Assembly: GCA_965116885.1 (NCBI GenBank)
Contig: OZ220741.1
Coordinates: 774,881-838,880, forward strand
DNA length: 64,000 bases
From: Candidatus Latescibacterota bacterium
Lineage (GTDB): Bacteria; Latescibacterota; UBA2968
Direction: 5' to 3'
The stretch's first letter is position 1. Every line of letters starts with the position of its first letter. The notes beneath the pieces are model-generated. The model was not told the DNA's origin. It saw only the letters and a list, made by a program, of their open reading frames with translations, and did no database searches. Positions 8,932 through 52,218 of this stretch are shown here, one piece after another. Made by a program: the position numbers and the translations under genes.

Positions 8932-9043
8932 GTTTATTCTCCTCACACAAAGACACGAAGGGATAAAAAACGACCCGTTTTACCCCGCCCGCTCCGTCTA
9001 TTCATCTGCGTCTATCTGCGTCATCTGCGGATACTTCTGTTTC

Positions 9044-10432: not shown

Positions 10433-10434
10433 TG

Positions 10435-13211: not shown

Positions 13212-13221
13212 AAAAAACTCC

Positions 13222-13884: not shown

Positions 13885-13905
13885 AACAAACCTCCTTCCC
13901 TCGTC

Positions 13906-16136: not shown

Positions 16137-16138
16137 CT

Positions 16139-17941: not shown

Positions 17942-17953
17942 TTGAAAAAAATA

Positions 17954-19216: not shown

Positions 19217-19373
19217 ACGCTCCTCCATTAAATAAACCCGAGCCAATTTAATACGACAACATCTCTATATCAACCCTCTTCTGGCACCACTATGAATCTG
19301 GTTGACACACCAATGCTACAGATGATACTATTATATTTCCGTGGAAACAACAGAACAAAGGGAAGGACAAAAA

Positions 19374-20222: not shown

Positions 20223-20336
20223 ACCACTTCATTCTCGCCTGGCATAACCGCCCAATCGGTACGCAGTTCCGCGACGTGTTCGCCCAGTTCGCTATCGCTG
20301 AGGGGATGGACCGGTCGCATGGGCTGATCTCCTATC

Positions 20337-21620
20337 TCACTCTGCCTGCTTTTGTTGATTTTTCAGAATCTCGTCGAGAAGCGGCAGTCCTTTGAGCCGC
20401 GCTTTCCAGTTTCGAGGCTGTTTTTCGGCAAGGCTCATAATGCCTTTATTGTATTTGAATCCCTCGCTGGTCACATTCTCAATAATCGGATGCCAACTAT
20501 CCCCAGTGCGATCTCTTACAACCCCAACTGAGGGACCTCTAACCCGTTTGATCTTCCTATCATTCTTATCAAACCGTAGCGCTTTCAGGTATTCCTCCGG
20601 AACATTCGCAAGCCCCTTGAGTGCAATGGCCGCATTTGTCCCAAATATCGCATGGATATTCTTTACCGTAGTCCCATCTGAAAACACACCGGGTTTATAA
20701 CGCTCATCCGTCTGATTCCGTTTCTCCACATAACCAGGTCCCATCGTCACGGCAAAAGCACAACTCTTCACAGTCACACCGTCGATTTTGACAACGCCGT
20801 TTTGAGCTTTGTGTGGTCCAAGCAACACCGCAGTACTGCCATTCTCACAATATAGATTCTTTGCCGTAATATCATGCACGCCGCCGTTATGCCCTCCGGC
20901 ACCCGTTTCCAGTCTAAAAGTCACCCCACCGCCAATGGCTTCGAGATTTTCAAAATGGATGGTCTCCCCCGCATGCATCTGAACCAAACCGTAACCTGGG
21001 CTGGTATTCGTGCTTCTCAGGTTTCTCACCAGACCAGCGGTTGGCCTGAAGACGCCCTCACTCTCCACATCTCTATCGCTGGACGGCGTAAAGATAAATG
21101 CAGAATAAGTGGTAAAACTATCCTTAACATCAATATCGGAGAGCAGGAAATTTTTGACCTTCCTGCAGTTGACGGTCCGTATGCCTTCCCCCGCCACACT
21201 TCCGCGATCTGAATAATCGACAATAAACTTACCGCCCAACCCGCGAATACTGACATTCTCTATGGATTCGGCATTCCTTCCCGTACCCAATCCAAAAACA
21301 ATGGTCTTCGTACCTTTGGGCCAATAGGGTTTGATAACCGTGTCTTTCTCGATCAACAGGTGTACATTGGACTTCAAATTGATGCCCCCAAAACGATAAA
21401 CCCCTTTCGGAACGATCAGGCGTCCGCCACCTTTTACAGAGACCTCATCAATCGCTTTTTGCAATCGCTCACTCTGATTGCTCTCACCCCCATCATCAAC
21501 CAGTCCGAAATCCGTCTTCAGATTCATCGTCAAACCATTTGGATCCATCGTTTCCACGTATGTCGCCTCCGCAACCGCAGTCATTACAAATAGGGTTATC
21601 ATCAACAATACGGTCTTCAT
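20337..21620 (-). CDS. Secreted right-handed parallel beta-helix protein (pectate-lyase-3 / GH28-like glycosidase fold)
   Basis: 427 aa; signal peptide MKTVLLMITLFVMTAVAEA; N-term ...DFGLVDDGGESNQSERLQKAIDEV..GGGRLIVPKGVYRF.. matches pectate_lyase_3-type beta-helix; about 47% GC. Confidence 0.6.
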   Translation of the reverse strand: MKTVLLMITLFVMTAVAEATYVETMDPNGLTMNLKTDFGLVDDGGESNQSERLQKAIDEVSVKGGGRLIVPKGVYRFGGINLKSNVHLLIEKDTVIKPYWPKGTKTIVFGLGTGRNAESIENVSIRGLGGKFIVDYSDRGSVAGEGIRTVNCRKVKNFLLSDIDVKDSFTTYSAFIFTPSSDRDVESEGVFRPTAGLVRNLRSTNTSPGYGLVQMHAGETIHFENLEAIGGGVTFRLETGAGGHNGGVHDITAKNLYCENGSTAVLLGPHKAQNGVVKIDGVTVKSCAFAVTMGPGYVEKRNQTDERYKPGVFSDGTTVKNIHAIFGTNAAIALKGLANVPEEYLKALRFDKNDRKIKRVRGPSVGVVRDRTGDSWHPIIENVTSEGFKYNKGIMSLAEKQPRNWKARLKGLPLLDEILKNQQKQAE

Positions 21621-21632
21621 GGTTGTCTCCCC

Positions 21633-23441
21633 TCACTGACGTTCAACATAAACGTAGTAAGCGCCGCAGATGGGCTGGTTGCGCTCGTCGTCGAACCAGG
21701 TGTGCAAAAGCGTGGGGCCCGGCTCCAGATCCACGGTAAACACAACACCCTGATCGTCTGGCTTAACGGGCCTGGCGTAGAATTGTCCACCGACCAGCAC
21801 ACGCGCTCTGGCAATCGGCAACGCAATACCCGCTTTCAGTTCGCCATCGGTCAATTGAGCCGCCTGGCAAGCCTCTCTCAGCTTGAGGCCGCTCTCTCTC
21901 GGCCAGCGCCGCAGTTCAAAAGTGTACGTGCCAGCGGCCTCGACCATCAGGTGCCAGTAACTGTTCTTCCGCACGGCCGTCCTCACCTGCCGCTGCTGAT
22001 CCACAAAGACATCTCGCCACTCGCAGGCCGACAGCGTCATCGGATTCTCGGCTTCACTGCCGATGGTAATCCGCTGCACTTGATTGGCGACCGGTTCCAC
22101 TTCTTGCCACCAGGCATTTAGATAATCCCGCATCTGCCGGACAATGTCAGGATGCTGATCGGCAACATCGAGATTCTGTTCGGGATCGCTATCCAGATCA
22201 TACAGTGCCGTTCCTTCAAGCAAGCGCCACCGTTTCCAGAGCACAGCAGCCCCCTCGCGTCTTATGAACGAAGGGCTGTCGGGCGTCGGGTAGTCCAGCT
22301 GCCCGGGCATACGGCTGTAATTCACCGTCAACATGCGATCTTCCGGCACCTGCTCCGCACCCCGCAAAGCCGGAGATAGGCTAATCCCGTCCAAACGCAA
22401 TTCGGCTGGCGATTCCAGCCCACAAAACTCGATCAAAGTCGGCAAAATATCCTGCACCTGAGTCAGTCCCTCAATCTCCCGGGGTTCGCCCAGACCACCA
22501 TTTGGCCAATGCAAGAAAAACGGTACCCGATGCCCACCTTCCCAGAGCTCGCACTTTTTACCCCGCATCCCGGCATTGTAATAGACAGAACCAAAAGTAC
22601 TGCCATTATCAGTCATAAAAATCAGGATGGTATCCCTATCTACGCCCTGTTCTTGCAGAAAGCGCCGAAGCGCACCGACCTGAGTATCCAGATTTCGAAT
22701 CATAGCGAGAAAGCGAATGATATTTTCTCGCAAATTTTCGGGAAGTGCAGGCAACTGGTGTTCATCCTCTGCAAATGCCGCCTCAATGGCCTCGCGGTCT
22801 TCGGCAGGCACAAAAAGTGGGGCGTGCGGGGCATTGGTCGGCAGGAAAGTGAAAAAGGGTTCTGAAGCCGCGATCCGTGCTTGCATCCACGCTTTTGCCG
22901 CGTTGAAAAAGACCTCGGTACAGTACCCATCCTGTCGCACGCGAGAGCCATTGTGACAGTATATATCATCGAAATAATCGTTCTCCCAGTAGTCGGGCAC
23001 CGAACTGATATGAGAGGATGGAAACCAGAGACTTTCCTCAAAACCGCGGTCTTGAGGACGGTACGGATAGTTGTCGCCCAGATGCCATTTGCCAAACACA
23101 CCCGTTCGGTAACCGTTCGACCGGAAAATATCGGCCATGGTCGGCAAATCTGGGCGCAAAAGCGAGCGTCCGCTGCTCACGTTCACAGCGCCATTGCGTG
23201 CCGCATCAAGTCCGCTCAGCAATTGACCGCGAGTAGGCGTACACATGGGCGCGACGTGAAAATCCATCAGCCGAATACTTTCCCCGTGCAAGCTGTCCAG
23301 ATTCGGCGTCCGGGCAACGGGATTGCCGTGACAGCCCAGATCGCCATACCCCTGGTCGTCGGTAATGATCAAAATCACATTGGGGCGAGAAGGGTGCAGG
23401 CTCGATGATTCGCGTTCTTTCAAAACAGTTTTACCTTTCAA
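21633..23441 (-). CDS. Sulfatase (S1 family) with C-terminal extension domain
   Basis: 602 aa; NVILIITDDQGYGDLGCHGN and C-T-P-T-R-G-Q-L-L-S-G. Confidence 0.9.
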   Translation of the reverse strand: MKGKTVLKERESSSLHPSRPNVILIITDDQGYGDLGCHGNPVARTPNLDSLHGESIRLMDFHVAPMCTPTRGQLLSGLDAARNGAVNVSSGRSLLRPDLPTMADIFRSNGYRTGVFGKWHLGDNYPYRPQDRGFEESLWFPSSHISSVPDYWENDYFDDIYCHNGSRVRQDGYCTEVFFNAAKAWMQARIAASEPFFTFLPTNAPHAPLFVPAEDREAIEAAFAEDEHQLPALPENLRENIIRFLAMIRNLDTQVGALRRFLQEQGVDRDTILIFMTDNGSTFGSVYYNAGMRGKKCELWEGGHRVPFFLHWPNGGLGEPREIEGLTQVQDILPTLIEFCGLESPAELRLDGISLSPALRGAEQVPEDRMLTVNYSRMPGQLDYPTPDSPSFIRREGAAVLWKRWRLLEGTALYDLDSDPEQNLDVADQHPDIVRQMRDYLNAWWQEVEPVANQVQRITIGSEAENPMTLSACEWRDVFVDQQRQVRTAVRKNSYWHLMVEAAGTYTFELRRWPRESGLKLREACQAAQLTDGELKAGIALPIARARVLVGGQFYARPVKPDDQGVVFTVDLEPGPTLLHTWFDDERNQPICGAYYVYVERQ

Positions 23442-23490
23442 TGAACAATTATCAGGTCTTTTTCAGATCTTCCCTGGCCAGATCATCCAT

Positions 23491-24879
23491 TTAATAAATC
23501 AGCCGGCCTTTGCGTAGCGCAGGCTCATTGTAGCGCTCCATCTGGGCAATCAGCTCAGCTTTAAACTTCTCGGCAATCTCTTTGTATTCGGGATCGGAAT
23601 ATACGTTGACCAGCTCATCCGGGTCCTTATGCAGATCGTACAACCAGGGATCATCAACCTGTGAGAGAACCAGTTTATAACGTCGGTTAACGGCCATAAC
23701 GGTCTGCGATCCTGAAGTAGTCATATAGACAATGCGATCATCATCTACCACCTTTTCATCACCGAGAAACGCCGCAGCATCATTTAACCCATGGGCATCT
23801 GGAATCTCCTCCTCAATCCCCATAATACCCAGAATCGTCGGACCGAAATCAACCGTCGTATAGGCGGTATTCACAACTTTCCCCGGCGCGATCTTCTCCG
23901 GCCAGCGAATCACAAACGGAATCTTTGCACTGCCCTCGTAGGGCATCCCCTTGTTGTGGCGTCTATGTTCGCCCATCAGGTCGCCGTGATCGGCAGTAAA
24001 AATTACGATCGTATTCTGATCCAACCCCCCGGCTTCCAGATCTGCCAGAATGCGCCCCACATTATCGTCGATGCATTTGACCATCCCAAAATACCTCTGC
24101 ATCTGCCTCTGATTCAGCTCATGGGCCGTATTCCTGTCTCCAAACCGGTGCCATTTCGGCATTTTCTCCACAGGAAAATCCATCGTGCGCGGATTTTGAA
24201 AAACCATGTCTTTGTACATCGTATCGTAGGGCGCGCGAACCGTATTTGGCCCGTGCGGATCCGGGATAGAAACCATAATGCAAAAGGGTTGATTCTGATC
24301 GCGCTCGATAATTTCCAGGGTGCGGATAGTCAACCAATCAGTTGTAAACGATTTTTCGTCGGCATCATCTACTCTGCTGGCAGGTCCACCCCTGTTGTTC
24401 CTCGCCGCAACATAGGGCGTGCCATCATCTTTCAACCCAAGTTTCTTCCAGTGACCGCGGTTCCACATATACCGATTGTCTTCAAAACCGAATTTGTGCT
24501 CTGGCGCAAAACCGGGCTTGGCTTCTCCACCCAGATGCCACTTGCCGAGATATGAGGTGGCATAACCCTGATTCTTGAGCACCTCGGCAAACGTGATCAG
24601 CCCCTCTTTCAGGGGAATGTCGTTTTTATAAACATCGGTAGCAATCGGATAAAGACCGGAAACAAAAGAAGCACGCGAAGGCGAACAAACAGGCGACGAC
24701 GAATAATAACTGTCGCAAATAGCACCGTCCCGCGCGAGCGAATCAATATGCGGCGTATCTACTTTAACGCCTGGTCCCCAGACAAAAGCCTGATCCTCCG
24801 TCATCAAATCGCGATAACAACCCAATGTGCGAAAATTGTGTTCATCGGTATGAATAATCAGCAGATTCGGTTTACTCAT
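23491..24879 (-). CDS. Sulfatase (S1 family)
   Basis: 462 aa; NLLIIHTDEH and C-S-P-S-R-A-S-F-V-S-G. Confidence 0.9.
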   Translation of the reverse strand: MSKPNLLIIHTDEHNFRTLGCYRDLMTEDQAFVWGPGVKVDTPHIDSLARDGAICDSYYSSSPVCSPSRASFVSGLYPIATDVYKNDIPLKEGLITFAEVLKNQGYATSYLGKWHLGGEAKPGFAPEHKFGFEDNRYMWNRGHWKKLGLKDDGTPYVAARNNRGGPASRVDDADEKSFTTDWLTIRTLEIIERDQNQPFCIMVSIPDPHGPNTVRAPYDTMYKDMVFQNPRTMDFPVEKMPKWHRFGDRNTAHELNQRQMQRYFGMVKCIDDNVGRILADLEAGGLDQNTIVIFTADHGDLMGEHRRHNKGMPYEGSAKIPFVIRWPEKIAPGKVVNTAYTTVDFGPTILGIMGIEEEIPDAHGLNDAAAFLGDEKVVDDDRIVYMTTSGSQTVMAVNRRYKLVLSQVDDPWLYDLHKDPDELVNVYSDPEYKEIAEKFKAELIAQMERYNEPALRKGRLIY

Positions 24880-27421: not shown

Positions 27422-28516
27422 TTATTCACAGTACAACTTCGCCACGGCAATCGCATCCTCTTCCCAGCAGGTATAAAACAAATACAACTGACCATCTTCT
27501 TTGAAGGCATAAGAATCGTGCACCACATCGCCCTCCCAATCCTCCTCAGCGCGGACCATATCTTCGGGGGGATAACTCGTCTGCCACGTCCGCCAATCGC
27601 CTGCACTCAAATCCACAGTCGAACGCATAATATATTCCGGCTCCTCCCATTTTCGGCTGTAAAACACCTCCAGCGTCTCGCCGTCTTCCATCACCCGCAC
27701 AGACCCGTGGCGCAGACCCAACCCCCCATTGGGAAGATGATCACCCGCCAGCCCATCGGCGACGAGATCATCTTCAATAGGCGACGACTCAGCAGACACC
27801 CACAGAGGGTCGCTCGTATTCCAACCCTCTGGCGCATCCCACGGACATTCGGGATCAGCCGGCTCTAAAAAAAATCCGCGCTGTGCAAAACCGTACCAAT
27901 CGCCGCGATAGGTAAACACCCGCAAATAATTTCGATCCGCAAATTTCAACCTTTTCAATCCATGGCCTTCTTCCCCACCTACCTCGGGACGGTTAAAATT
28001 CAACCCGGACTTCGACGTCGCCACAAATGAACGCTGGCCATCATTGCTCTTCCCGTGAACCACCATGATAAAATGCCGATTATCCTCATCCACAATCACC
28101 TCGGGAGACGACACATGCCCCGTCAACACAATGCCATCTACCACATCAATCGTCTCAGTCTCATTGCCCAGCCGCAAATCAAACACCCCGCGCCCCGGAA
28201 AACGCGGATCATCCAATCTCCCGGCATTAAAAATCGTCCAATCCGCCGAATCCACCCGATCTGACCACGCCATGTGAATACTCGTCCCGTGATGCGACGC
28301 AAAATAGAGATAATAATTCGCATCCGAATGTGCCCGATCTTCCGCAGACACCCAATCGGGAATCCGAACCACCGTGGGAAACATCGCATCGCCGCGCAAC
28401 CTCGAGCGATTGGGATCTGCGCCAATTCTGAGCCGCCGCACATCATTTCCCTCGACAATCGGCCTGCCGTGCAATTTCTCGACCCGATAAGTTACTACAC
28501 CCATACATTCCTCCAT
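27422..28516 (-). CDS. Hypothetical protein, possibly beta-propeller glycoside hydrolase-like
   Basis: 364 aa, Trp/Asp-rich, no secure motif; embedded in sulfatase/PhyH block. Confidence 0.4.
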   Translation of the reverse strand: MEECMGVVTYRVEKLHGRPIVEGNDVRRLRIGADPNRSRLRGDAMFPTVVRIPDWVSAEDRAHSDANYYLYFASHHGTSIHMAWSDRVDSADWTIFNAGRLDDPRFPGRGVFDLRLGNETETIDVVDGIVLTGHVSSPEVIVDEDNRHFIMVVHGKSNDGQRSFVATSKSGLNFNRPEVGGEEGHGLKRLKFADRNYLRVFTYRGDWYGFAQRGFFLEPADPECPWDAPEGWNTSDPLWVSAESSPIEDDLVADGLAGDHLPNGGLGLRHGSVRVMEDGETLEVFYSRKWEEPEYIMRSTVDLSAGDWRTWQTSYPPEDMVRAEEDWEGDVVHDSYAFKEDGQLYLFYTCWEEDAIAVAKLYCE

Positions 28517-29493: not shown

Positions 29494-30264
29494 TCACATC
29501 ACCACTGGTTGCCGCCCGCCAATCGACGGCGGCTCCATAATCCGTCGCTGCTGATCTGTCACATTGGGATAATCGTCTGGATTGTAATAATTCTGTGCCC
29601 ACGCCGAATGTCCCGGACTGAATTTATACAGCAATGAACGGCGCTCGTGCTCGCCTTCCCAGGGCATTGTTCCGTGCACCAGAGCCTCTGTAAAAATGAT
29701 CATATCCCCAGCCTCTGCTTCGGGCTGATGTACATAGTGCGCTGGCCGCTCAAAATTGCGCACATCGTTGGGAATATTGACAAAATTGCTCTTATGCGAC
29801 CCGGGAACACAGGCAAAGCCGCCATCCCCTTTGCGCGCGGGCGCAAGATTATACGTAAACACCGTCAACCCATTGCGCATCACGCCATCATGGTATTTGT
29901 ACCAATGATCGCCCGGCACACCCGCCTGCAGTGATGGCCCACCGTGCAATCGCCCGCGTCTCGCGCCCTTCTTCATAAAAATAGAATAATCGTGATCCAC
30001 GCGAAACGTCGGCCCCAACAACTCAATCATATACGGCAACGCATTGGGATGATCGAACAACGCCTGCGTCTCTGGACCCCACATTGAAACGCGACTCGTG
30101 CGGCGGTGCCCATCTTTTTCGTCGTCAGGATCAGCCCATACCTCATCGGCCAACTTATTCAGCGCATCCACCTCATCTGCACTCAACACATCTTTAACAA
30201 CCAAAAACCCCTGCAAATCAAATCGAAACTTCTCTTCCGGTGTCATAATGGCCTCCGTTTCCAT
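29494..30264 (-). CDS. PhyH-family dioxygenase-like protein, HxG variant (RLHGGP)
   Basis: 256 aa; distal His in FTEALVHGT; no HxD/E found. Confidence 0.7.
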   Translation of the reverse strand: METEAIMTPEEKFRFDLQGFLVVKDVLSADEVDALNKLADEVWADPDDEKDGHRRTSRVSMWGPETQALFDHPNALPYMIELLGPTFRVDHDYSIFMKKGARRGRLHGGPSLQAGVPGDHWYKYHDGVMRNGLTVFTYNLAPARKGDGGFACVPGSHKSNFVNIPNDVRNFERPAHYVHQPEAEAGDMIIFTEALVHGTMPWEGEHERRSLLYKFSPGHSAWAQNYYNPDDYPNVTDQQRRIMEPPSIGGRQPVVM

Positions 30265-31061
30265 TACAGATTATCAACCGCATAAACCGCTTTCTCTATC
30301 TGTTCCTCTCCGACGGTTTTGACCTTCGCATCAGAACCGAGCAACAGGGCAATATCGCAAATATTATTTATATCTCGCGGAACACCATTGGACGCTTGAT
30401 AGAGCGCGTCGAGCGCGTCCTCGTCGAACAAGGATCGATCGGCTCCCGCTTTTTCCAGACGTGTTTGCACATAAGACAGGGTTTCTTCGCGCTTAAATGG
30501 TGCGAGGTGATATTGGCGTGCGACCTGTTGTCCCAATGGCTCAATGCCAGCGACCCGGTCCTTGAGACCTGTCTGTCCAATGAGGAGAAGAGTAAGAAAA
30601 AAACGCCCGTTGCGTTGAAAGCTGAACAGAGATTGCAACTCTTCAAATGTATTGTCGTCTGCTATTGCATCGGCATCATCGACAATGACAACCGTATATT
30701 TGCCCGCATTGGCACTTTTGACAGTCTGAACCTCAAGTGCGCGTTGCAATTTTCCATTCGATTGGTCCTCAACACCCAATTGCCCGAGCATATCTCGAAG
30801 AAAGTCTTCCGGCGCAAGACCGGGTCTATTCATAAGCGCGATTTTATACCTATCGGATGACAGTTCATGGATGAGCATGCGACTCACAACGGTTTTGCCA
30901 CAGCCCGCATCGCCCGTGAGTACGGCAGCCCCCATGCGAGTATTAATCGCGTAAAACATTTGCAACAGTGCTCTCTGGTGATCTGCTGAAGAATAAAAAA
31001 AACGCGGATCCGGCACACTTTCAAACGGCAATTCTGTCAGATTCCAATATTCCTGGTACAC
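30264..31061 (-). CDS. ExeA/GspA-like AAA+ ATPase (AAA_22 family)
   Basis: 265 aa; N-term YWNLTELPFESVPDPRFFYSSADHQRALLQMFYAINTRMGAAVLTGDAGCGKT matches ExeA-type pattern; stop overlaps PhyH start by 1 nt. Confidence 0.7.
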   Translation of the reverse strand: MYQEYWNLTELPFESVPDPRFFYSSADHQRALLQMFYAINTRMGAAVLTGDAGCGKTVVSRMLIHELSSDRYKIALMNRPGLAPEDFLRDMLGQLGVEDQSNGKLQRALEVQTVKSANAGKYTVVIVDDADAIADDNTFEELQSLFSFQRNGRFFLTLLLIGQTGLKDRVAGIEPLGQQVARQYHLAPFKREETLSYVQTRLEKAGADRSLFDEDALDALYQASNGVPRDINNICDIALLLGSDAKVKTVGEEQIEKAVYAVDNL

Positions 31062-31338
31062 GGTTTTAACCCTTTATTTTAAATCCGACCATGGTCTTTA
31101 CAGCCCAATCGGAGTCGTGGTTTAACGCTGCCCATTGCACCTATTTTGTCGCAATCCAATATAGTTACCTCAAACGGTCTGTGTCAAGTAATCGACAAAG
31201 CGATTTAAGGGCTTTCCCATGTTTTATACAACACGGAGACATTGGCACAAAATACTTTGACGGAACGTAACCAAACCCTATATTTTGCTGCACTGCGCTT
31301 GTGACATATCTGTTTTGACTCTCATTTTGGAGATCTGT

Positions 31339-32835
31339 ATGGCCTGGTGGCAATCCGTTTTGCTGGCCACTTACAGCCTGGTGTTTGCATTGCTGATGCT
31401 CGTAAGTCTGCATAGACACTTGATGGTACACCTCTATTACAAGCACCGTCGCAAACAACCCATTCCCCGCGGCACCTTTGATGAATTGCCCTTTGTGACA
31501 GTGCAATTGCCCGTATTTAATGAACGCTATGTGGTCGAACGATTGATTCGCGCGGTCGCCAAAATGGATTATCCAACCGACCGCCTCGAAATTCAGGTTT
31601 TAGATGACTCAACCGATGAAACAACCGCCATTGCCAGACAGTGCGTGGATGAACTTCGGCGTTCGGGACTGGATATCGCGCTGATACACCGCAACACGCG
31701 CACCGGGTATAAAGCCGGTGCTCTCGCAGAGGGATTGCGGGTTGCACGGGGTGAATTGATCGCAATTTTTGACGCCGATTTCCTGCCGCCACCAGACTTT
31801 TTGAACAAAACCATCCCGCACTTCGTCGAACCGCAGGTCGGCATGGTTCAGACGCGCTGGGGACATCTGAATCGGGACTATTCCATTTTGACACGCGTAC
31901 AGGCCATCTATCTCGACGGTCATTTTGTGATGGAACACGGTGCGCGAAGCCGCTCGGGCTTGTTCTTCAATTTTAACGGCACAGCGGGCGTCTGGCGCCG
32001 AGCCTGTATCGATGAAGCGGGCGGTTGGCAGCACGACACCCTGACCGAAGACCTCGATTTGAGCTACCGCGCGCAATTGGCGGGCTGGCGATTTGTCTAT
32101 CTTGAGAATACCGTAACACCGGCAGAAATCCCCGTGGAAGTAAATGCCTGGAAGTCACAGCAATTTCGGTGGGCAAAAGGCTCGGTTCAGACCGCAAAAA
32201 AAACACTAAAGACCCTGTTGAAAAGTCATCTCTCCTGGCGCGTGAAGGGCGAAGCCGCTTTTCATCTGGTAACCAATTTCGCATATTGTTTGATGGCAAT
32301 GATCGCCATTCTCATCTTTCCCGCAATTGTCCTGAGGGAAGACCTGGGATGGCTCCGGGTGGTAATAATCGATTTTCCCCTCTTTGTAGGCGCAACGGGC
32401 GTGATCTCCAGATACTATATCCACTCGCAGCGGGAAATATATTCGGATTGGAAATCGCGCATCCTGTATTTGCCATTTGTACTCGCCCTGGGCATGGGAA
32501 TTTCATTGAACAACGCGCGCGGAGTAATTCAGGCACTGCGAGGGCACGAGACTGCATTTAACCGCACCCCTAAGTATCGCGTTATCGGACGGAATGGAAG
32601 TTGGTATCGCAAAAATTACGCCCTGCGAAAAAACATGACGTCATTTTTGGAAATTGGACTCGGTTTTTATTTGCTGGCCGCTATGGCGTATTCGATTGCG
32701 AAAGGACTGTATTTCCCCGTACCATTCCTGGTTTTGTTTGCCTCTGGATTTTTTTATGTAGGGTGCCTGTCTTTGTTCCAGGGTACCTGGGCAAAGATGC
32801 ATTCGCAATCAATTGAAGTCGCGGAAGCAAACTAA
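31339..32835 (+). CDS. Processive family-2 glycosyltransferase (cellulose synthase/CslA-like) with N- and C-terminal TM helices
   Basis: LDDSTDET (DxD), FDADF, TED and QQFRW (QxxRW) motifs; start MAWWQ with GGAG RBS. Confidence 0.8.
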   Translation: MAWWQSVLLATYSLVFALLMLVSLHRHLMVHLYYKHRRKQPIPRGTFDELPFVTVQLPVFNERYVVERLIRAVAKMDYPTDRLEIQVLDDSTDETTAIARQCVDELRRSGLDIALIHRNTRTGYKAGALAEGLRVARGELIAIFDADFLPPPDFLNKTIPHFVEPQVGMVQTRWGHLNRDYSILTRVQAIYLDGHFVMEHGARSRSGLFFNFNGTAGVWRRACIDEAGGWQHDTLTEDLDLSYRAQLAGWRFVYLENTVTPAEIPVEVNAWKSQQFRWAKGSVQTAKKTLKTLLKSHLSWRVKGEAAFHLVTNFAYCLMAMIAILIFPAIVLREDLGWLRVVIIDFPLFVGATGVISRYYIHSQREIYSDWKSRILYLPFVLALGMGISLNNARGVIQALRGHETAFNRTPKYRVIGRNGSWYRKNYALRKNMTSFLEIGLGFYLLAAMAYSIAKGLYFPVPFLVLFASGFFYVGCLSLFQGTWAKMHSQSIEVAEAN

Positions 32836-32855: not shown

Positions 32856-33704
32856 ATGGCAATGCGACTCGACAATCCATATCTCTGGGCATATACCGCA
32901 GCCATTCTGTTGCACATTCTACTCCTGCTCCTGGAAAACCCGCTGTCTGCGATCATTGTGCCGCAACCAGAAAAAATACCCGTGTCACCGCCCCTGACAT
33001 TTGAATTTGTCGATGTGCCCCAAAATCGAGACGACGCCCCGCCTGAAGAAACCCCGTTGCTCGCAGAGCGCGATAACATCTCTCGCGATCAACAAATGGA
33101 CCCCTTGCCCGAAAGCCACTTGCCATATTCCGATGGCATATCGCGGGCAAAGAACATAGCGACGCCAGCGCAGGGAAAGTCGCGCAGTGAGACACAGAGT
33201 ACAGACCGCGCACCGGAAACCACCGACAATCCCTTTAGCTTTGTAGAGGTATTGCAGAAAAATCCCGAAGAAGCGCGAAAAGAGCGAGAACGCGCGGTGC
33301 TGGGTGGGGAACTGCCTCAAGTGCGTATAGATATGGACAACAGCAAAACCCGCGCACTCGAACGCGGGGGATTGCAACTGAGCACGTATGCCTGGGACTA
33401 TGCGCCCTATATGCAATATCTCAAGCGACATATTGACCGTCATATTTATCCACCCCGCGCATTCGAGTTGGGTATGATCGACGGCATGACCCAGGTAAAA
33501 TTTAGAATCTGGCGCGATGGTCGGCTTGAAGGTCCCGAACTGATCGACTATAAGGGCCATGGCTTGTTGCGCGATACGAGCCTGAAGGCTGTTGAACTCT
33601 CGGCACCATTCAAGGCATTACCGCCAGATTTCCCGGATGAGTACCTCGAAATTGTGGGGACTTTTGAGTATTTAATTTTTGGAAAAGGACAAAGGCGACA
33701 ATAA
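32856..33704 (+). CDS. TonB-family energy transducer (N-terminal TM, Pro/Glu-rich linker, TonB C-terminal domain)
   Basis: 282 aa; C-term YPPRAFELGMIDGMTQVKFRIWRDGRLEGPELID... Confidence 0.65.
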   Translation: MAMRLDNPYLWAYTAAILLHILLLLLENPLSAIIVPQPEKIPVSPPLTFEFVDVPQNRDDAPPEETPLLAERDNISRDQQMDPLPESHLPYSDGISRAKNIATPAQGKSRSETQSTDRAPETTDNPFSFVEVLQKNPEEARKERERAVLGGELPQVRIDMDNSKTRALERGGLQLSTYAWDYAPYMQYLKRHIDRHIYPPRAFELGMIDGMTQVKFRIWRDGRLEGPELIDYKGHGLLRDTSLKAVELSAPFKALPPDFPDEYLEIVGTFEYLIFGKGQRRQ

Positions 33705-33705
33705 T

Positions 33706-34329
33706 ATGGGCTGGGCACTATTTGAACAGGGTGGTCTCATGATGTATCCTCTGACTTTGTGCTCAGTACTGGCTTTGGGCATTGCAATTGAGCGCGGATT
33801 TGCACTGCGCCGTCGCGCCATCATCCGGCCCGAGATTGTCAGTGTAATCGACAATATTCAAGGATCCGAAGACATTGGATTGGCTTTGAACGTCTGCAGA
33901 CAACACAAAGGTCCTTTCTCTGCAGTGATGCGCGCGGGATTAGACAACCGACATTTGTCCTTAGAAGAGATCCGAGAAAGTATTCTGGATCAGGGCCGTC
34001 AAGAGATGGGGGTATTGCAGAAGGGACTGGTAGTTCTGGAAACCGTAGCGGGAGTTTCGCCGCTTTTGGGACTTTTGGGCACTGTTTTGGGCATGATTAA
34101 AGTTTTTCAACAGGTTTCAGAAGTGGGCGTAGGGCAGGCCAATCTCCTGGCAGGGGGTATTTCGGAAGCAATTCTAACGACTGCTGCCGGACTTTTTATT
34201 GCAATTCCATCACTTGTATTTTACAATCTATACAGCAGTCGGGCAGAAAGCCTGATTTTGGAAATTGAGAAATACGCCAACACCCTGCTAAAAAAACTCC
34301 GGGGATTTCAAGGATCCGAAGGTGGATAG
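33706..34329 (+). CDS. exbB: MotA/TolQ/ExbB proton channel protein
   Basis: 3 TM helices, ...GVSPLLGLLGTVLGMIKVFQ... signature; ATG overlaps TonB stop. Confidence 0.8.
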   Translation: MGWALFEQGGLMMYPLTLCSVLALGIAIERGFALRRRAIIRPEIVSVIDNIQGSEDIGLALNVCRQHKGPFSAVMRAGLDNRHLSLEEIRESILDQGRQEMGVLQKGLVVLETVAGVSPLLGLLGTVLGMIKVFQQVSEVGVGQANLLAGGISEAILTTAAGLFIAIPSLVFYNLYSSRAESLILEIEKYANTLLKKLRGFQGSEGG

Positions 34330-34331
34330 CG

Positions 34332-34739
34332 ATGCGATTGCAAATGCCCGGCAAACGCCGCCCGGCCATCAATGTGACCTCTTTGATCGACGTCCTGTTT
34401 TTATTGCTTACATTTTTTCTCGTAACCACGCAATTTGTCGATCAATCCGCGCTCAAAGTCGAACTGCCCGCCATGGCACACGCGGAAAAAACGCAGCACG
34501 CGAGGCGTTATATTCTCAACATATCGGCAGATGGTCAAATGGCATTGGATGGTCAGATCGTCGATCAAACGACATTGCGGGAATTATTAAAACAACACGC
34601 AGCGGCCATAGATGAAAGTGGGGGCCTGATTTTGCGGGCAGACCGCCAATTGCCTTATGGCGATGTGATGTCGATTCTGGACCTCGTCAGAGGTGTGGGA
34701 ATCAGACGGATTACCAATGCCACAGCGGAACCCGAATAG
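34332..34739 (+). CDS. exbD: ExbD/TolR biopolymer transport protein
   Basis: 135 aa; INVTSLIDVLFLLLTFFLVTTQF single TM; stop TAG lies inside the GACGAATA repeat. Confidence 0.8.
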   Translation: MRLQMPGKRRPAINVTSLIDVLFLLLTFFLVTTQFVDQSALKVELPAMAHAEKTQHARRYILNISADGQMALDGQIVDQTTLRELLKQHAAAIDESGGLILRADRQLPYGDVMSILDLVRGVGIRRITNATAEPE

Positions 34740-34850
34740 ACGAATAGACGGTGCGGGGTACAACTGGTCGTTTCCCAGACCAGTTCATAGACGAATAGAC
34801 GAACCCTGCCCTACCAGCCAACCGCTATCGTTGATTCGTTGATTCGTTGC
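34733..34850. repeat. Composite repeat element: (GACGAATA)n octamers flanking hairpin GGTACAACTGGTC-N9-GACCAGTTCATAG, then GAACCCTGCCCTACCAGCCAAC and inverted GATTCGTT copies
   Basis: About 85% identical to element at 53474-53650. Confidence 0.8.
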
Positions 34851-34861
34851 GAGGTAGGAAC

Positions 34862-35471
34862 AATGCGCGTTTCCAAATCGTCCAATTTTTCACATATTGA
34901 AGATATCCAAATCGTTGCCCGGGTCTTAGAAGGCAACACAGAGGCTTTCTCTGTGCTGGTACAGCGACACCATGAACGCGTGTACAATACAGTTTACAGC
35001 TTCATTGGCGATATCGACGAAGCCGACGATTTGGCGCAAGAAGCATTTCTCAAAGCATTTCGCGCTCTGAAACGATTTCGAGGACAATCGCTATTTTCAA
35101 CATGGGTACACCGCATCGCTGTCAATTGCTGCTTAGACCATCTCAAGTCCAGACATCGGCGCAGCTTTGTTTCTCTGGATGAACATCGAGAAAATTGGGA
35201 CGCACCGCGCATCTGGGTGGGCCAGCCCCCAAATGCAGATGTGCGCGTTGAACGGCGGGAACTTCAAGAAATTCTCGAACGCGCCCTGAATGATCTGTCG
35301 GAAGAATATCGCGTGACCTTTGTTTTGCGAGAAATTGAAGGCCTGGCCTATGAAGAAATTGCCGAAGTGCTCAAATGCTCGATAGGAACCGTGAAATCTC
35401 GCCTGTTTCGCGGACGGACAAAACTCCGCGAAATTTTGCAAGTACAATACGACAACTGGATTGAGGCGTAA
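34862..35471 (+). CDS. ECF (sigma-70 family, group 4) RNA polymerase sigma factor
   Basis: Region 2 (DDLAQEAFLKAFRAL) and region 4 HTH (YEEIAEVLKCSIGTVKSRLFRGR); RBS AGGTAGG. Confidence 0.85.
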
Positions 35472-35473
35472 AT

Positions 35474-35947
35474 ATGGACGCAGACAACACCGTTGACATC
35501 AACTGCGAATTGTTGTCGGCTTATCTCGACGATGCGCTTACAGAAGCAGAACGGACGAGAGTTGAGAAGCTATTGCGCGTGTCCGATAGTCTCAGGCGTG
35601 AACTGGCCGAGATGGTGCGAGTGCGACAACTTTTTGCGGCCTGGTCTCCACCTGCACCCGATCGTTTTTTTGTACGGCGTGTAGATATAAAAATCCGGGA
35701 AGAAATGGCGCAAATGAAGAACAGGTGGGGGTTTCAAAAATTCGCCACTGCCGCAATATTGCTGATTTCTATTGGCTCTCTGGCATTTTTAACCCAACGC
35801 CTGGACAGAACTGTTGAACCCGTCACGCTGGATGCTTTTTTGCAGAGTTCGCTCGACCGAGAGGTTCGAGAAGTTGTGAGTTTGACCGAAGATGATTTTT
35901 CCAAAGACCGCGTGCTCGACCTCGTCTTATCAGACAACGCGCGTTAG
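35474..35947 (+). CDS. Putative anti-sigma factor (N-terminal anti-sigma helix, single TM)
   Basis: 157 aa immediately after sigma gene; CELLSAYLDDALTEAER motif; central hydrophobic helix. Confidence 0.6.
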   Translation: MDADNTVDINCELLSAYLDDALTEAERTRVEKLLRVSDSLRRELAEMVRVRQLFAAWSPPAPDRFFVRRVDIKIREEMAQMKNRWGFQKFATAAILLISIGSLAFLTQRLDRTVEPVTLDAFLQSSLDREVREVVSLTEDDFSKDRVLDLVLSDNAR

Positions 35948-35959
35948 AAGGTTTTTATT

Positions 35960-36346
35960 ATGTTTATTTCGCGTTTCCGCTTTATATGCCTGATCGTTTT
36001 GTGTCTCTTACTTGGCGCGGTAATAGGGACTGTTTACGAAAGTCTCGCGTCTGGTGATTCTGGAAAGAGGCGAGTGCGCCTGTCTGAAATGGTGGCAAAG
36101 CTCGACCTGTCAGATGGTCAGAAAGCGCAACTGGACACAATCCTCGAACAAGGGCGCAAATGCATGGTCGATATCAACACGGCCTATCGCTCAGAGTTTG
36201 GAAAAGTGAGAAACATAACCCGCGCTCAAATACGGGAAATCTTGACGCCTGATCAGCGCAAAGAATTTGATGAAATGATGGCCGAACAAGAGGCTCTGCG
36301 GCATCATCAGCGCAAAAACAGGACCCCCGGCAATCAGGCCGAGTGA
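35960..36346 (+). CDS. Periplasmic Spy/CpxP-like (LTxxQ) stress protein
   Basis: 128 aa, signal/TM then LSDGQKAQLDTIL and LTPDQRKEFDEMM repeats. Confidence 0.6.
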   Translation: MFISRFRFICLIVLCLLLGAVIGTVYESLASGDSGKRRVRLSEMVAKLDLSDGQKAQLDTILEQGRKCMVDINTAYRSEFGKVRNITRAQIREILTPDQRKEFDEMMAEQEALRHHQRKNRTPGNQAE

Positions 36347-36416
36347 TAAAAAGAATTTTATGAAAAAATAAGTGAGTAATCGTTTACTTTCTTCAAAGAT
36401 TTGAGAGGACGGAAGA

Positions 36417-38072
36417 ATGATAAAAAAAATAGCTACTTGCCGATGGTTCATGCTGCTTTTTCTCGCGCTCTTTGCCTGTGGCGAAGAAGAAGCACAACAG
36501 GCAGAGGGACAAGGCGGACGTGCTGGACGCGGCGGACGTGCTGGACGCGGTGGTGGCGCTGCTGCGCCCGTCAAGGTCGAGACTGTACAGCGAGGAGACA
36601 TTTCTGCATATATTCTCAAAAATACGACACTCGAAGCCGAAAGATGGGTTGACGTTCGAGCGCGCAGAGCTGGGCAGGTCATCGCATTACTAAAAGAAGA
36701 AGGCGACCCCGTACGTGCGGGTACCATCCTGGCACGACTCGACGCCGACGCTGCTCAAATCAGCGTCTCGCAGCGAGAAATTTCGTATCGCGAAGCCAAA
36801 CAGCGGTATGAACGCGAAGATGCCTTATTTCAGCGCAATCTGGGTAGCAAACAGTCTTATGAAAATGCCAAGACCCAATTCGAATCGTCCAAAGCACAAC
36901 TCGAACAGGCCAAACTCGATTTGAGTTACACGGCAATTAGAGCACCCATTGAAGGCATTATGACGCTGAGAAATATTGAGGTCGGCAACATGGTCACCAA
37001 CAATCAGGTGGTCGCCTCTGTAGCCAAATTCGATCCCCTGCTTGCACGCATCCAGGTAACCGAAAAGGACTTTGGCAAAATCACCGTAGGGCAGACCGCG
37101 CGCATTACGGTTGAAGCCGCACCTGAAAGAGAATTTACGGGCACAGTCAAAATGATCAGCCCGGTGGTAGATCCCGAAAGCGGCACGGTTAAAGTAACCG
37201 TTGAGATACCTCGAACAGATGCAAGTCTGCTGCGCCCGGGAATGTTTGCCTCGGTTTATATTATCACGGAAACGCGAAGAAACACCCTGGTTATTCCCAA
37301 AAAAGCCCTCGTACTCGAAGGAGAAGGCAACCAGGTATTCACCTTTGAAACCGATCCCGAAAGCGGGCGCGGTCAGGCACAACGCAGGCGCATTGAAATC
37401 GGCTTTACAGACAGTGACCGTTTAGAGATTCTCACAGGTCTTTCCCAAGGAGAGCAAGTCATTACCGTAGGACAGGAAGGATTGCGGCCCGGTTCTTCCG
37501 TACGCCTCGTAGGCGAGGCAGCACCTCCCGCATTTGCCGGACGCGGTGGACAGGGACGCGCTGGACGTGGACAGATGGGACAAAGTGGACAGGGACGCGC
37601 TGGACGCGGACAGATGGGACAAGGTGGGCAGGGTAGGCAGGGGCGTGGACAGATGGGACAGGGCGAAGGACGCGCTGGACGCGGACAGATGGGACAAGGC
37701 GGGCAGGGTAGGCAGGGGCGCGGACAGATGGGGCAAGGCGGACAACGAGGTGGTGATGGACAGGGACGCGCTGGACGTGGGCAGATGGGGCAAGGTGGAC
37801 AACGAGGTGGTGATGGACAGGGACGCGCTGGACGCGGGCAGATGGGGCAAGGCGGACAACGAGGTGGCGGTTTTGCCGGTGGACAAGGCGGCGGTGATCC
37901 CACAGACCGCATAAAACGCATGATTGAGCGCTTCCCCGAAGTCAAAGCCGAATACGAAAAGCGCGTGAAAGACGACCCCGAACTCGCAACAAATATGGAA
38001 AAACTCCGCGCTTTTATAGCTGAGATGCAAGAAAAAGGATTGATACCAGCACGAGGCAGACGAGGTAATTAA
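36417..38072 (+). CDS. RND efflux membrane fusion protein (HlyD/AcrA family) lipoprotein with N-terminal GRAGRGG and about 110-aa C-terminal Gly/Gln/Arg/Met repeat extension
   Basis: Lipobox LALFAC; biotinyl-lipoyl/beta-barrel MFP core; repeats GRAGRGQMGQGGQ. Confidence 0.8.
   Translation: MIKKIATCRWFMLLFLALFACGEEEAQQAEGQGGRAGRGGRAGRGGGAAAPVKVETVQRGDISAYILKNTTLEAERWVDVRARRAGQVIALLKEEGDPVRAGTILARLDADAAQISVSQREISYREAKQRYEREDALFQRNLGSKQSYENAKTQFESSKAQLEQAKLDLSYTAIRAPIEGIMTLRNIEVGNMVTNNQVVASVAKFDPLLARIQVTEKDFGKITVGQTARITVEAAPEREFTGTVKMISPVVDPESGTVKVTVEIPRTDASLLRPGMFASVYIITETRRNTLVIPKKALVLEGEGNQVFTFETDPESGRGQAQRRRIEIGFTDSDRLEILTGLSQGEQVITVGQEGLRPGSSVRLVGEAAPPAFAGRGGQGRAGRGQMGQSGQGRAGRGQMGQGGQGRQGRGQMGQGEGRAGRGQMGQGGQGRQGRGQMGQGGQRGGDGQGRAGRGQMGQGGQRGGDGQGRAGRGQMGQGGQRGGGFAGGQGGGDPTDRIKRMIERFPEVKAEYEKRVKDDPELATNMEKLRAFIAEMQEKGLIPARGRRGN
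37541..37870. repeat. Imperfect tandem DNA repeats (about 39-66 bp units) encoding GQGRAGRGQMGQGGQ(RGGD) in the MFP gene
   Basis: GGACAGGGACGCGCTGGACG(T/C)GG(A/G)CAGATGGG(A/G)CAAGG(T/C)GG repeated 7 or more times. Confidence 0.85.
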
Positions 38073-38076
38073 ACCT

Positions 38077-50379: not shown

Positions 50380-50380
50380 A

Positions 50381-52110: not shown

Positions 52111-52218
52111 AAGATGAAGATACGACAGGGGGGTGGGAAAATCAATATATTGACTTTCGGGTGTGTATCCTTGCATTTTACAGCGTGCGTGTGTATCTTT
52201 GCCCGCGCACAATAAAAC

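What the first reader, a model, noticed from the sequence alone, without database searches (positions are those of the whole stretch)
30264..31061. ExeA/GspA-like AAA ATPase at the head of the sulfatase/PhyH block
ExeA/GspA normally partners with GspB to insert a type II secretion secretin, or sits in PEP-CTERM/exosortase loci (TIGR03015-type). Here it lies in neither a T2SS nor an exosortase context. Instead its stop overlaps the first PhyH gene by 1 nt, and it is divergent from a GT2-TonB-ExbBD operon. It may be a regulatory or assembly ATPase co-opted for this locus.
Basis: partly seen in the sequence, partly recalled or inferred. Interest (0 to 1): 0.5.

Follow-up and report, generated by a model that had tools for sequence, protein, structure and literature searches.

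The report
Partner-less ExeA-like ATPase beside sulfatase genes
The gene is a real, selected ExeA/GspA-type AAA+ ATPase in a Latescibacterota genome; in most relatives it is paired with an HD-GYP gene inside cell-surface polysaccharide loci, so its place at the head of the PhyH/sulfatase block looks like a recent rearrangement rather than a new job.

Summary
ORF 30264-31061 (-) encodes a 265-aa AAA+ protein. It matches Pfam AAA_22 (1.6e-17) and aligns over its full length to TIGR03015 (185 bits, below the 324.5 cutoff). The 64-kb window has no T2SS or exosortase genes.

Across 85 orthologous loci, the conserved partner is an HD-GYP gene lying directly downstream. This holds in 50 of 66 loci from other phyla and in 4 of 4 basal Latescibacterota-like loci. 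Wza/Wzc and glycan-synthesis genes are often nearby, and an exosortase appears in 2 loci. The window's sub-clade (at least 70% identity, 7 species) shows no HD-GYP gene or remnant in the stretches held. Parsimony on the NJ tree reads this as a loss.

In that sub-clade the PhyH genes lie 0.8 to 7.2 kb downstream, with variable insertions between. A divergent GT2-TonB-like-ExbB-ExbD operon and a TTGACA-18-TATATT promoter are conserved throughout it. However, the GT2 is a housekeeping-type enzyme that stands without the ATPase in Acidobacteriota.

The gene is under purifying selection (dN/dS 0.14-0.26). It evolves faster than its relatives, and its Walker B motif reads DD instead of DE.

Best reading: an orphaned envelope-polysaccharide-locus ATPase acting in trans, and probably co-transcribed with the PhyH genes. 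Interest is modest.

The parts
30264..31061 (-). ExeA/GspA-like stand-alone AAA+ ATPase, 265 aa, GTG start. Walker A is GDAGCGKT. Walker B is VVIVDDAD where the family consensus is IDEAQ. GQ and PR motifs are conserved.
   Evidence: Pfam AAA_22 1.6e-17. TIGR03015 185 bits, below the 324.5 cutoff. AF2 model pLDDT 90.5, entirely AAA+ base plus lid. Foldseek best hits are Orc/Cdc6, TnsC and MuB. Motifs. dN/dS 0.14-0.26.
31158..31187 (-). Sigma-70-type promoter-like site TTGACA-18-TATATT, about 97 nt upstream of the ATPase start codon.
   Evidence: Matches 11 of 12 consensus positions. Both hexamers are invariant in all 8 aligned orthologous intergenic regions, while flanking sequence diverges to 49% mean column identity.
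31062..31338 (.). Divergent intergenic region shared by the ATPase gene and the GT2 operon.
   Evidence: Sequence; alignment A2.
31257..31284 (+). Promoter-like site TTGACG-16-TATATT facing the GT2 operon.
   Evidence: Conserved in the close relatives in A2.
31339..32835 (+). Membrane GT2 with processive-synthase motifs (DDSTD, DAD, TED, QQFRW). The start is as chosen by gene callers (498 aa); the longest ORF starts at 31285.
   Evidence: Pfam Glyco_tranf_2_3 3.3e-29. Sequence. Best solved relative is BcsA at 85 bits. It is 55-60% identical to GT2s of other phyla that have no ATPase or TonB neighbours.
32856..33704 (+). TonB-like protein with an N-terminal TM segment and a weak TonB_C domain.
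   Evidence: Pfam TonB_C 1.1e-5; sequence.
33679..34329 (+). ExbB/TolQ-family proton channel subunit.
   Evidence: Pfam MotA_ExbB 1.8e-32. NCBIfam tolQ 90.7 bits and exbB 69 bits, both below cutoff.
34332..34739 (+). ExbD/TolR-family subunit.
   Evidence: Pfam ExbD 3.2e-28.
29494..30264 (-). First PhyH-family dioxygenase gene, probably co-transcribed with the ATPase. The likely true start is ATG 30246, preceded by GGAGG.
   Evidence: Pfam PhyH 6.3e-12. Sequence. Gene calls of 250 aa. No terminator-like site between the genes.

Best explanation
The gene encodes a soluble, stand-alone AAA+ ATPase of the ExeA/GspA-TIGR03015 kind (initiator-clade fold). It belongs to a widespread, uncharacterised sister clade of the XrtA/PEP-CTERM-associated ATPase. 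In that clade the ancestral setting is a two-gene module, ATPase followed by an HD-GYP protein, embedded in cell-envelope polysaccharide biosynthesis and export loci (Wza/Wzc/Wzy, initiating and other glycosyltransferases, sometimes an exosortase).

In the Latescibacterota sub-clade that includes this window, the HD-GYP gene and the glycan genes downstream are absent, read here as a loss. A PhyH/sulfatase catabolic block now sits behind the ATPase and its conserved promoter.

Shown:
- family membership
- fold
- purifying selection
- the conserved promoter-like site
- the conservation pattern of the neighbours

Inferred:
- The protein still works as a nucleotide-dependent switch or assembly factor for envelope-glycan export machinery encoded elsewhere, by analogy with ExeA helping secretin assembly.
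- The DE-to-DD Walker B change and the long branch suggest it may be a slow hydrolyser.
- Its link to the PhyH genes is transcriptional read-through, not shared function.
For: Family and fold.

Sub-threshold on TIGR03015, as are its orthologues (213-241 bits).

HD-GYP partner directly downstream on the same strand: 50 of 66 loci from other phyla, plus 13 more elsewhere in the locus; 4 of 4 basal Latescibacterota-like loci; 0 of 7 in the window's sub-clade. The partner is HD-GYP type (Pfam HD_5; GYP motifs visible in the sequences).

Polysaccharide context: Wza/Wzc in 34 of 73 loci. Recurrent WecA-like GT4, Wzy_C, WbqC, PIG-L, DegT, GT4 and flippases, and an exosortase in 2 loci.

Loss inference: the NJ tree nests the window's sub-clade inside the HD-bearing Latescibacterota group. 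No HD remnant was found by tblastn in the window or in 8 related loci. None of the top 120 HD-GYP homologues lies on contigs of the sub-clade.

PhyH spacing varies from 0.8 to 7.2 kb with foreign insertions.

Selection and rate: dN/dS 0.14-0.26. Faster evolution: window versus L013 is 44% identical, whereas L009 versus L013 is 55%.

Invariant promoter hexamers.
Against: No function has been shown for any member of this clade or of TIGR03015. Four literature searches found no paper describing the family or the pairing, and Haft 2006 does not mention the ATPase.

The rest of the genome could not be scanned, so it is unknown whether export machinery or an HD-GYP partner exists elsewhere.

The tight spacing to the PhyH gene, with a strong RBS and no terminator, persists in four species (window, L014-L016). 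It coincides with the Walker B DD change. That is also what a new functional coupling would look like.
Confidence: 0.55

Rival explanations
1. First reader's view. The ATPase has been recruited as a regulatory, chaperone or assembly factor for the PhyH/sulfatase catabolic block, and is its first gene.
For: The genes are co-directional with a 17-nt gap or 1-nt overlap, GGAGG precedes the PhyH start, and no terminator lies between them. This layout is kept in L014-L016 and in the identical-protein contigs. The Walker B DE-to-DD change and accelerated divergence are confined to, or strongest in, the clade where the genes are adjacent.
Against: The adjacency is broken by unrelated insertions in L017 (84% identity), L007, L008/L019 and L018. 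No PhyH or sulfatase neighbour occurs in any of 78 orthologous loci below 60% identity. The number and order of downstream sulfatases vary even among contigs with a 100% identical ATPase. The protein has no domain that suggests substrate or DNA recognition.
Confidence: 0.15
2. The ATPase works with the divergently transcribed GT2-TonB-like-ExbB-ExbD (plus RND) envelope cluster. One possibility is coupling a membrane glycan or glycolipid synthase to a proton-motive-force-driven trans-envelope system.
For: The divergent arrangement with a fixed distance of about 1.8-2.0 kb is kept in all 7 species of the window's sub-clade. At 5.3 kb it is kept in basal loci L009, L020, L021 and L095. Divergent promoter-like sites share one 277-bp region and are conserved.
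Against: The GT2 is 55-60% identical to GT2s in Acidobacteriota, which sit among housekeeping genes with no ATPase, TonB or ExbBD. No ExbB or ExbD lies near the ATPase in any of 73 loci from other phyla. Three unrelated genes lie between the two units in the basal loci. Shared ancestry within one phylum can explain the synteny.
Confidence: 0.2
3. It is a TniB/TnsC/MuB-like target-selection ATPase left over from a mobile element.
For: The fold matches TnsC (7m99, TMq 0.71 / TMt 0.73) and MuB (8xvb) over the full length. Precomputed Pfam TniB hits exist for many orthologues.
Against: No transposase, TniQ or integrase lies nearby. Synteny is stable across species and phyla, with an HD-GYP partner and polysaccharide genes. 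Purifying selection and a conserved promoter are present. The best curated sequence model is TIGR03015, not a transposition family.
Confidence: 0.03
4. It is a decaying, functionless remnant after loss of its partner.
For: The HD-GYP partner is missing. The Walker B catalytic Glu is replaced by Asp. The clade sits on a long branch. dN/dS is somewhat higher than for GT2 or ExbB.
Against: The reading frame is intact in every relative. dN/dS is 0.14-0.26 over dS up to about 1.1. Walker A, GQ and PR motifs are intact. The DD variant also occurs in 9 other family members. The promoter is invariant.
Confidence: 0.07

Closest known systems
TIGR03015, XrtA/PEP-CTERM system-associated ATPase (NCBIfam hypothetical equivalog)
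   Same: Same length (about 265-269 aa). The alignment is full-length and colinear at E 1.7e-54. Both are stand-alone AAA+ proteins with no membrane or peptidoglycan-binding domain. Orthologues in other phyla sit in exopolysaccharide loci, two of them with an exosortase within 10 kb.
   Different: The score of 185 bits is far below the 324.5 cutoff, and all tested orthologues are also below it at 213-241 bits. The window has no exosortase, PEP-CTERM or Wza/Wzc genes. The clade's hallmark partner is an HD-GYP protein, which I did not find described for TIGR03015.
T2SS GspA/ExeA (for example E. coli K-12 GspA b3323; Aeromonas ExeA)
   Same: Both have an N-terminal AAA_22 P-loop ATPase domain. 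The general idea of an ATPase assisting assembly of an outer-membrane export channel also applies; that part rests on established knowledge of ExeAB, not on a test here.
   Different: E. coli GspA is 489 aa and carries GspA_C39-like and PG_binding_1 domains. It lies beside gspB and gspC-O. The window protein is 265 aa and is AAA+ only. It shares just 21% identity over 114 residues with GspA and has no GspB or T2SS neighbours.
ATPase plus HD-GYP module of polysaccharide loci (unnamed clade delineated here)
   Same: The window protein is an orthologue, at 40-58% full-length identity, and nests within the Latescibacterota branch of this clade.
   Different: The adjacent HD-GYP gene and the Wza/Wzc/glycan genes are absent in the window's sub-clade (0 of 7 species). 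Walker B is DD rather than DE.
Initiator-clade AAA+ proteins TnsC/TniB, MuB, Orc1/Cdc6
   Same: The fold matches (Foldseek E 1e-10 to 1e-9; TM 0.66-0.77).
   Different: Sequence identity is only 13-19%. There is no winged-helix domain and no transposition or replication gene context.

Membership tests
T2SS GspA/ExeA | N-terminal AAA_22-type P-loop ATPase domain | tested here: met
   Pfam AAA_22 1.6e-17. E. coli GspA also hits AAA_22.
T2SS GspA/ExeA | Membrane anchor plus periplasmic C39-like and peptidoglycan-binding (PF01471) domains | tested here: not met
   The protein is 265 aa and every residue is modelled as AAA+ base plus lid. No such Pfam hits. E. coli GspA has PF21327 and PF01471.
T2SS GspA/ExeA | Adjacent gspB/exeB and a T2SS (secretin GspD, GspE-O) in the neighbourhood | tested here: not met
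   None among the scanned ORFs of the 64-kb window. Compare the E. coli locus.
T2SS GspA/ExeA | Clear sequence similarity to a bona fide GspA | tested here: inconclusive
   BLASTP against E. coli GspA gives 21% identity over 114 aa, E 0.007 for the pair. E. coli GspA is itself a divergent member. Aeromonas ExeA was not available.
TIGR03015 XrtA/PEP-CTERM-associated ATPase | Whole-protein HMM score at or above the curated cutoff (324.5 bits) | tested here: not met
   185 bits. Orthologues score 213-241 bits.
TIGR03015 XrtA/PEP-CTERM-associated ATPase | Full-length colinear match to the model | tested here: met
   Residues 1-261 align to model positions 1-265 of 269.
TIGR03015 XrtA/PEP-CTERM-associated ATPase | Co-occurrence with exosortase XrtA and PEP-CTERM proteins | tested here: not met
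   Pfam scans of the window's larger ORFs gave no match to the exosortase family PF09721. Genome-wide presence cannot be tested with these tools. An exosortase is seen in only 2 of the wider-family loci.
ATPase plus HD-GYP polysaccharide-locus clade (defined here) | Orthology to the clade's ATPases | tested here: met
   40-58% full-length identity. Nested in the clade in the NJ tree.
ATPase plus HD-GYP polysaccharide-locus clade (defined here) | HD-GYP gene directly downstream | tested here: not met
   0 of 7 species in the window's sub-clade, against 54 of 70 elsewhere. No remnant by tblastn.
ATPase plus HD-GYP polysaccharide-locus clade (defined here) | Wza/Wzc or other glycan biosynthesis genes nearby | tested here: inconclusive
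   No Wza/Wzc in the window. A membrane GT2 is adjacent, but it is a housekeeping-type enzyme.
Catalytically competent AAA+ ATPase | Walker A GxxGxGKT, Walker B hhhhDE, sensor and arginine residues | tested here: inconclusive
   Walker A, GQ and PR motifs are conserved. The Walker B Glu is replaced by Asp (VDDAD) in the window and L014-L017. The DD variant occurs in 9 other members. Activity cannot be tested here.
TniB/TnsC/MuB transposition ATPases | Adjacent transposase or target-selector genes, and mobility | tested here: not met
   None in the window or in orthologous loci; synteny is stable. Only the fold matches.

The most novel reading that the evidence does not exclude
Proposed reading for the clade as a whole: it is a c-di-GMP-linked assembly or gating module for polysaccharide export. 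The soluble ExeA-like ATPase would work with an HD-GYP protein. In basal Latescibacterota that protein carries a TM segment and a peptidoglycan-binding SPOR tail, so the pair resembles a split form of GspA's ATPase-TM-PG-binding design.

On this reading, the window's lineage has discarded the HD-GYP half and rewired the ATPase. Its Walker B is now DD and it evolves fast. Its new partner would be either the adjacent GT2/TonB-like/ExbBD envelope system or the co-transcribed cytoplasmic PhyH/sulfatase enzymes.
Probability: 0.12. Interest if true: 0.6.

Novelty: new variant of a known kind. Interest (0 to 1): 0.3.

Why it matters
For the window itself the result is mostly clarifying. The ATPase should not be taken as evidence for a new regulatory layer of sulfated-glycan catabolism, nor annotated as a type II secretion protein.

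The comparative work has a wider by-product. It delineates a conserved, apparently undescribed gene pair, an ExeA-like AAA+ ATPase followed by an HD-GYP protein. The pair sits in exopolysaccharide loci labelled as Planctomycetota, Nitrospirota, Nitrospinota, Rokubacteria/Methylomirabilota, Desulfobacterota, Omnitrophota, Aminicenantes, Latescibacterota and others.

This gives a concrete, testable handle on what the long-unexplained TIGR03015-type ATPases do in polysaccharide export. It also suggests a possible link to cyclic-di-GMP signalling. The Latescibacterota lineage offers a natural partner-loss variant for comparison.

Tried and rejected
- **Solved structures by sequence.** A PDB sequence search with the ATPase gave nothing significant (best E 0.065, NtrC P-loop).
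- **Is the 364-aa gene a degenerate HD protein?** I compared the 364-aa unknown gene (27422-28516) and the 363-aa gene that follows the ATPase in L007 with HD proteins. They are unrelated to HD proteins and to each other.
- **Remnants of the HD-GYP gene.** tblastn against the window and 8 related loci found none (best E 0.5).
- **HD-GYP orthologue elsewhere in the genome.** I matched contig lengths among the top 120 homologues and found none on the sub-clade's contigs. This is weak evidence, because only 120 of 252 hits are listed and the search is word-based.
- **Defence-system role.** PADLOC gave only trivial P-loop hits (at most 20 bits).
- **Literature.** No paper describing the family or the pairing was found for TIGR03015, for ExeA with exosortase, for HD-GYP with AAA and Wza, or for GspA with AAA_22. 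Haft 2006 does not mention the ATPase.
- **Geobacter xap lead.** A lead recalled from memory, that the Geobacter xap locus might contain the pair, could not be verified from the papers held and was dropped.
- **Is GT2-TonB-ExbBD a widely conserved operon?** It is not. The GT2 stands alone among housekeeping genes in Acidobacteriota.
Full report
**1. What is there**

The ORF at 30264..31061 on the minus strand encodes 265 residues from a GTG start.
- It matches Pfam AAA_22 at E 1.6e-17.
- It aligns over its full length to NCBIfam TIGR03015, the XrtA/PEP-CTERM system-associated ATPase. The score is 185 bits, E 1.7e-54, residues 1-261 against 1-265 of 269. That is well under the curated cutoff of 324.5 bits.
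- An AlphaFold2 model built on 42 homologues is confident (pLDDT 90.5, pTM 0.85). The whole chain forms an AAA+ base plus lid, with no further domain.
- The nearest solved folds are Orc/Cdc6, TnsC and MuB, the initiator clade.
- A sequence search of the PDB found nothing useful.

Walker A (GDAGCGKT) and the family's invariant GQ and PR motifs are present. Walker B reads VDDAD where the family consensus is IDEAQ.

**2. Neighbourhood in the window**

| Side | Genes |
|---|---|
| Downstream, same strand | two PhyH genes, a 364-aa gene with no family, two more PhyH genes, a BPL_N/ThuA-like gene, two sulfatases, a pectate-lyase-fold protein |
| Upstream, divergent | membrane GT2 with D, D, D, QxxRW motifs; TonB-like protein; ExbB; ExbD; ECF sigma and anti-sigma; Spy/CpxP-like protein; HlyD; AcrB; RDD protein |
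| Rest of the 64 kb | ClpP, a PL8 lyase, MFS, seven further sulfatases, a sigma-54 activator, squalene-synthesis genes, central metabolism |

No T2SS component, secretin, exosortase, Wza or Wzc was found.

One detail needs correcting. The 1-nt overlap with the PhyH gene holds only for the longest possible ORF. An ATG at 30246 has GGAGG 5 nt upstream, and gene callers used it on all six related contigs. The spacing is tight either way, and no terminator-like site intervenes.

**3. Source organism**

Contigs carrying an identical protein, and the best genome matches, are all MAGs labelled Latescibacterota (WS3). Examples are OX638329.1 at 95% identity and OX638317.1 at 93%.

**4. Which neighbour is conserved**

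I collected 85 orthologous loci. I searched their ORFs with the window's proteins and with proteins taken from the distant loci. Three tiers appear.

(a) Window sub-clade: seven distinct species at 70-95% ATPase identity (L014-L019, L007).
- All keep the divergent GT2-TonB-like-ExbB-ExbD operon at 1.8-2.0 kb.
- All have PhyH genes downstream, but at variable distance:
  - 0.8 kb in the window and L014-L016
  - 2.5 kb in L017
  - 1.6 kb in L008/L019
  - 5.1 kb in L007
  - 7.2 kb in L018
- The intervening DNA is foreign. L007 and L017 carry a roughly 370-aa gene plus a Fic gene.
- Even among contigs with a 100% identical ATPase, the number of downstream sulfatases differs.

(b) Basal Latescibacterota-like loci at 50-58% identity (L009/L010, L020-L023, L095).
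- The ATPase is followed directly by an HD-GYP-type protein in 4 of 4 loci with enough downstream sequence.
- The GT2 operon lies 5.3 kb away, behind three unrelated genes.
- There are no PhyH or sulfatase genes.

(c) 73 loci at 40-50% identity. Their record labels are Planctomycetota (Brocadiaceae, Scalindua), Nitrospirota, Nitrospinota, Rokubacteria/Methylomirabilota, Desulfobacterota, Omnitrophota, Aminicenantes and others.
- The HD-GYP gene is directly downstream on the same strand in 50 of the 66 loci with enough downstream sequence to judge. It lies elsewhere in the locus in 13 more and is absent in 3.
- Wza and/or Wzc homologues are present in 34 of 73.
- Other recurrent neighbours are WecA-like Glycos_transf_4, Wzy_C, WbqC, PIG-L, DegT, GT4, NTP_transf_5, flippases and radical SAM/SPASM genes. 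An exosortase appears in two loci.
- None has PhyH, sulfatase, ExbB or ExbD next to the ATPase.

**5. Loss of the partner**

An NJ tree places the window sub-clade as a monophyletic group nested within the HD-bearing Latescibacterota-like group. The absence of the HD-GYP gene is therefore a loss.
- tblastn finds no HD remnant in the window or in eight related 20-kb loci.
- None of the 120 best database homologues of the L009 HD-GYP protein lies on a contig of this sub-clade. This is weak evidence.

The sub-clade's ATPases sit on a long branch. L009 is 55% identical to a Planctomycetota orthologue (L013), whereas the window protein is 44% identical to it. The Walker B Glu-to-Asp change is confined within Latescibacterota to the window and L014-L017, although DD occurs sporadically elsewhere.

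The gene is not decaying. dN/dS against seven relatives is 0.14-0.26, compared with 0.05-0.12 for GT2 and 0.08-0.15 for PhyH1.

A consensus-like TTGACA-18-TATATT site lies about 97 nt upstream. Both hexamers are invariant across all eight aligned intergenic regions, while the surrounding sequence diverges.

**6. The GT2 operon as a candidate partner**

The GT2 is very strongly conserved, at 55-60% identity to proteins labelled Acidobacteria, Gemmatimonadetes and Handelsmanbacteria. In two Acidobacteriota-type loci it sits between AIRC and citrate synthase genes, with no TonB, ExbBD or ATPase.

The GT2-TonB-ExbBD linkage, and its proximity to the ATPase, are thus specific to this phylum-level lineage. 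Inherited synteny could explain them.

**7. Comparison with known families**

- **E. coli K-12 GspA.** It is 489 aa with AAA_22, a C39-like domain and PG_binding_1, and it lies next to gspB and gspC-O. The window protein shares 21% identity with it over 114 residues. It lacks every feature of GspA other than the P-loop domain, so it should not be filed as a T2SS GspA/ExeA.
- **TIGR03015.** This is the nearest curated model, but the window protein and four tested orthologues all fall below its cutoff. The clade is best described as a sister group with the same general habitat, exopolysaccharide loci.
- **The peptidoglycan-binding partner.** In the basal Latescibacterota-like loci the HD-GYP partner carries a TM segment and a SPOR domain (27.4 bits against a cutoff of 21). 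Several database homologues do too. The pair there mimics GspA's ATPase-TM-peptidoglycan-binding layout.

**8. Mechanism and confidence**

The biochemical identity is shown: an initiator-clade AAA+ NTPase, soluble, about 30 kDa. Its cellular role is inferred.

| Reading | Probability |
|---|---|
| Still serves envelope-polysaccharide export or assembly encoded elsewhere, as a nucleotide-dependent switch; the PhyH genes merely ride on its promoter | 0.55 |
| Functional tie to the GT2/TonB-like/ExbBD cluster | 0.20 |
| Genuine co-option for the PhyH/sulfatase block | 0.15 |
| Functionless remnant | 0.07 |
| Mobile-element ATPase | 0.03 |

Four literature searches found no paper describing the family or its pairing with HD-GYP, and Haft 2006 does not mention the ATPase.

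**9. Verdict**

The gene is a partner-less variant of a known kind of ATPase. Its position at the head of the sulfatase/PhyH block is most simply explained as a lineage-specific rearrangement.

Interest for this window is modest at 0.3. The conserved ATPase-HD-GYP module found along the way is the more interesting lead.

Noticed in passing
L009:10001-12745, L013:10001-11982 and most of L011-L093: A conserved two-gene module: an ExeA-like AAA+ ATPase followed directly by an HD-GYP protein. It is seen in 54 of 70 loci, across loci labelled with many different phyla, and usually lies inside Wza/Wzc/Wzy polysaccharide loci. I found no description of it in the searchable literature.
   Followed up: partly
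L009:10919-12745, L021:10804-12534: In basal Latescibacterota-like loci the HD-GYP partner has a C-terminal TM segment plus a SPOR peptidoglycan-binding domain. Together with the ATPase this resembles a split version of the GspA architecture.
   Followed up: partly
window 9044-24879 (nine sulfatase ORFs): In every sulfatase ORF the Pfam Sulfatase domain starts at residue 2-20 of the longest possible ORF. That leaves no room for a signal peptide, so these sulfatases look cytoplasmic. They are interleaved with PhyH dioxygenases, xylose-isomerase-like TIM barrels and an MFS transporter.
   Followed up: no
window 6100-8100: A low-GC island (0.41 against about 0.52) holds three ORFs. One is a TIGR04255 family protein (7217-8050). 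One has an internal duplication of about 45 aa (6760-7326). Two have no Pfam, NCBIfam or PADLOC match.
   Followed up: partly
window 1-20000: GC skew is very strongly negative (about -0.33) over 20 kb in which nearly all genes lie on the minus strand. It weakens sharply beyond about 30 kb.
   Followed up: no
L007:10960-12437 and L017:10938-12451: A roughly 370-aa gene of unknown family plus a 128-aa Fic-domain gene (PADLOC PDC-S23, 58 bits) is inserted between the ATPase and the PhyH genes in two species. It looks like a mobile toxin or defence-type pair.
   Followed up: partly
window 31339-32835; L096:1241-2728; L097:7001-8497: The membrane GT2 with processive-synthase motifs is 55-60% identical across phyla. 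In Acidobacteriota-type loci it sits between an AIRC gene and a conserved 140-aa gene plus citrate synthase. This suggests a housekeeping envelope glycan or glycolipid synthase of unknown product.
   Followed up: partly
L061:12868-13965 and 17 other loci of the wider family: Radical SAM/SPASM genes recur in multiple copies (39 copies in 18 loci) near the ATPase-HD-GYP module in other phyla.
   Followed up: no
window 34839-41352: An ECF sigma factor, a zf-HC2 anti-sigma, a Spy/CpxP-like periplasmic protein and an HlyD/AcrB RND pump follow ExbD. The sigma/anti-sigma/Spy trio is absent from the basal loci, where ExbD is followed directly by HlyD/AcrB.
   Followed up: no
window 49066-52473: An amine-oxidase-family flavoprotein followed by two tandem squalene/phytoene synthase genes, resembling the HpnE/HpnD/HpnC three-step squalene route.
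   Followed up: no
window 27422-28516: A 364-aa protein with no Pfam, NCBIfam or PADLOC match is conserved (86-94% identity) within the PhyH block of related Latescibacterota.
   Followed up: partly
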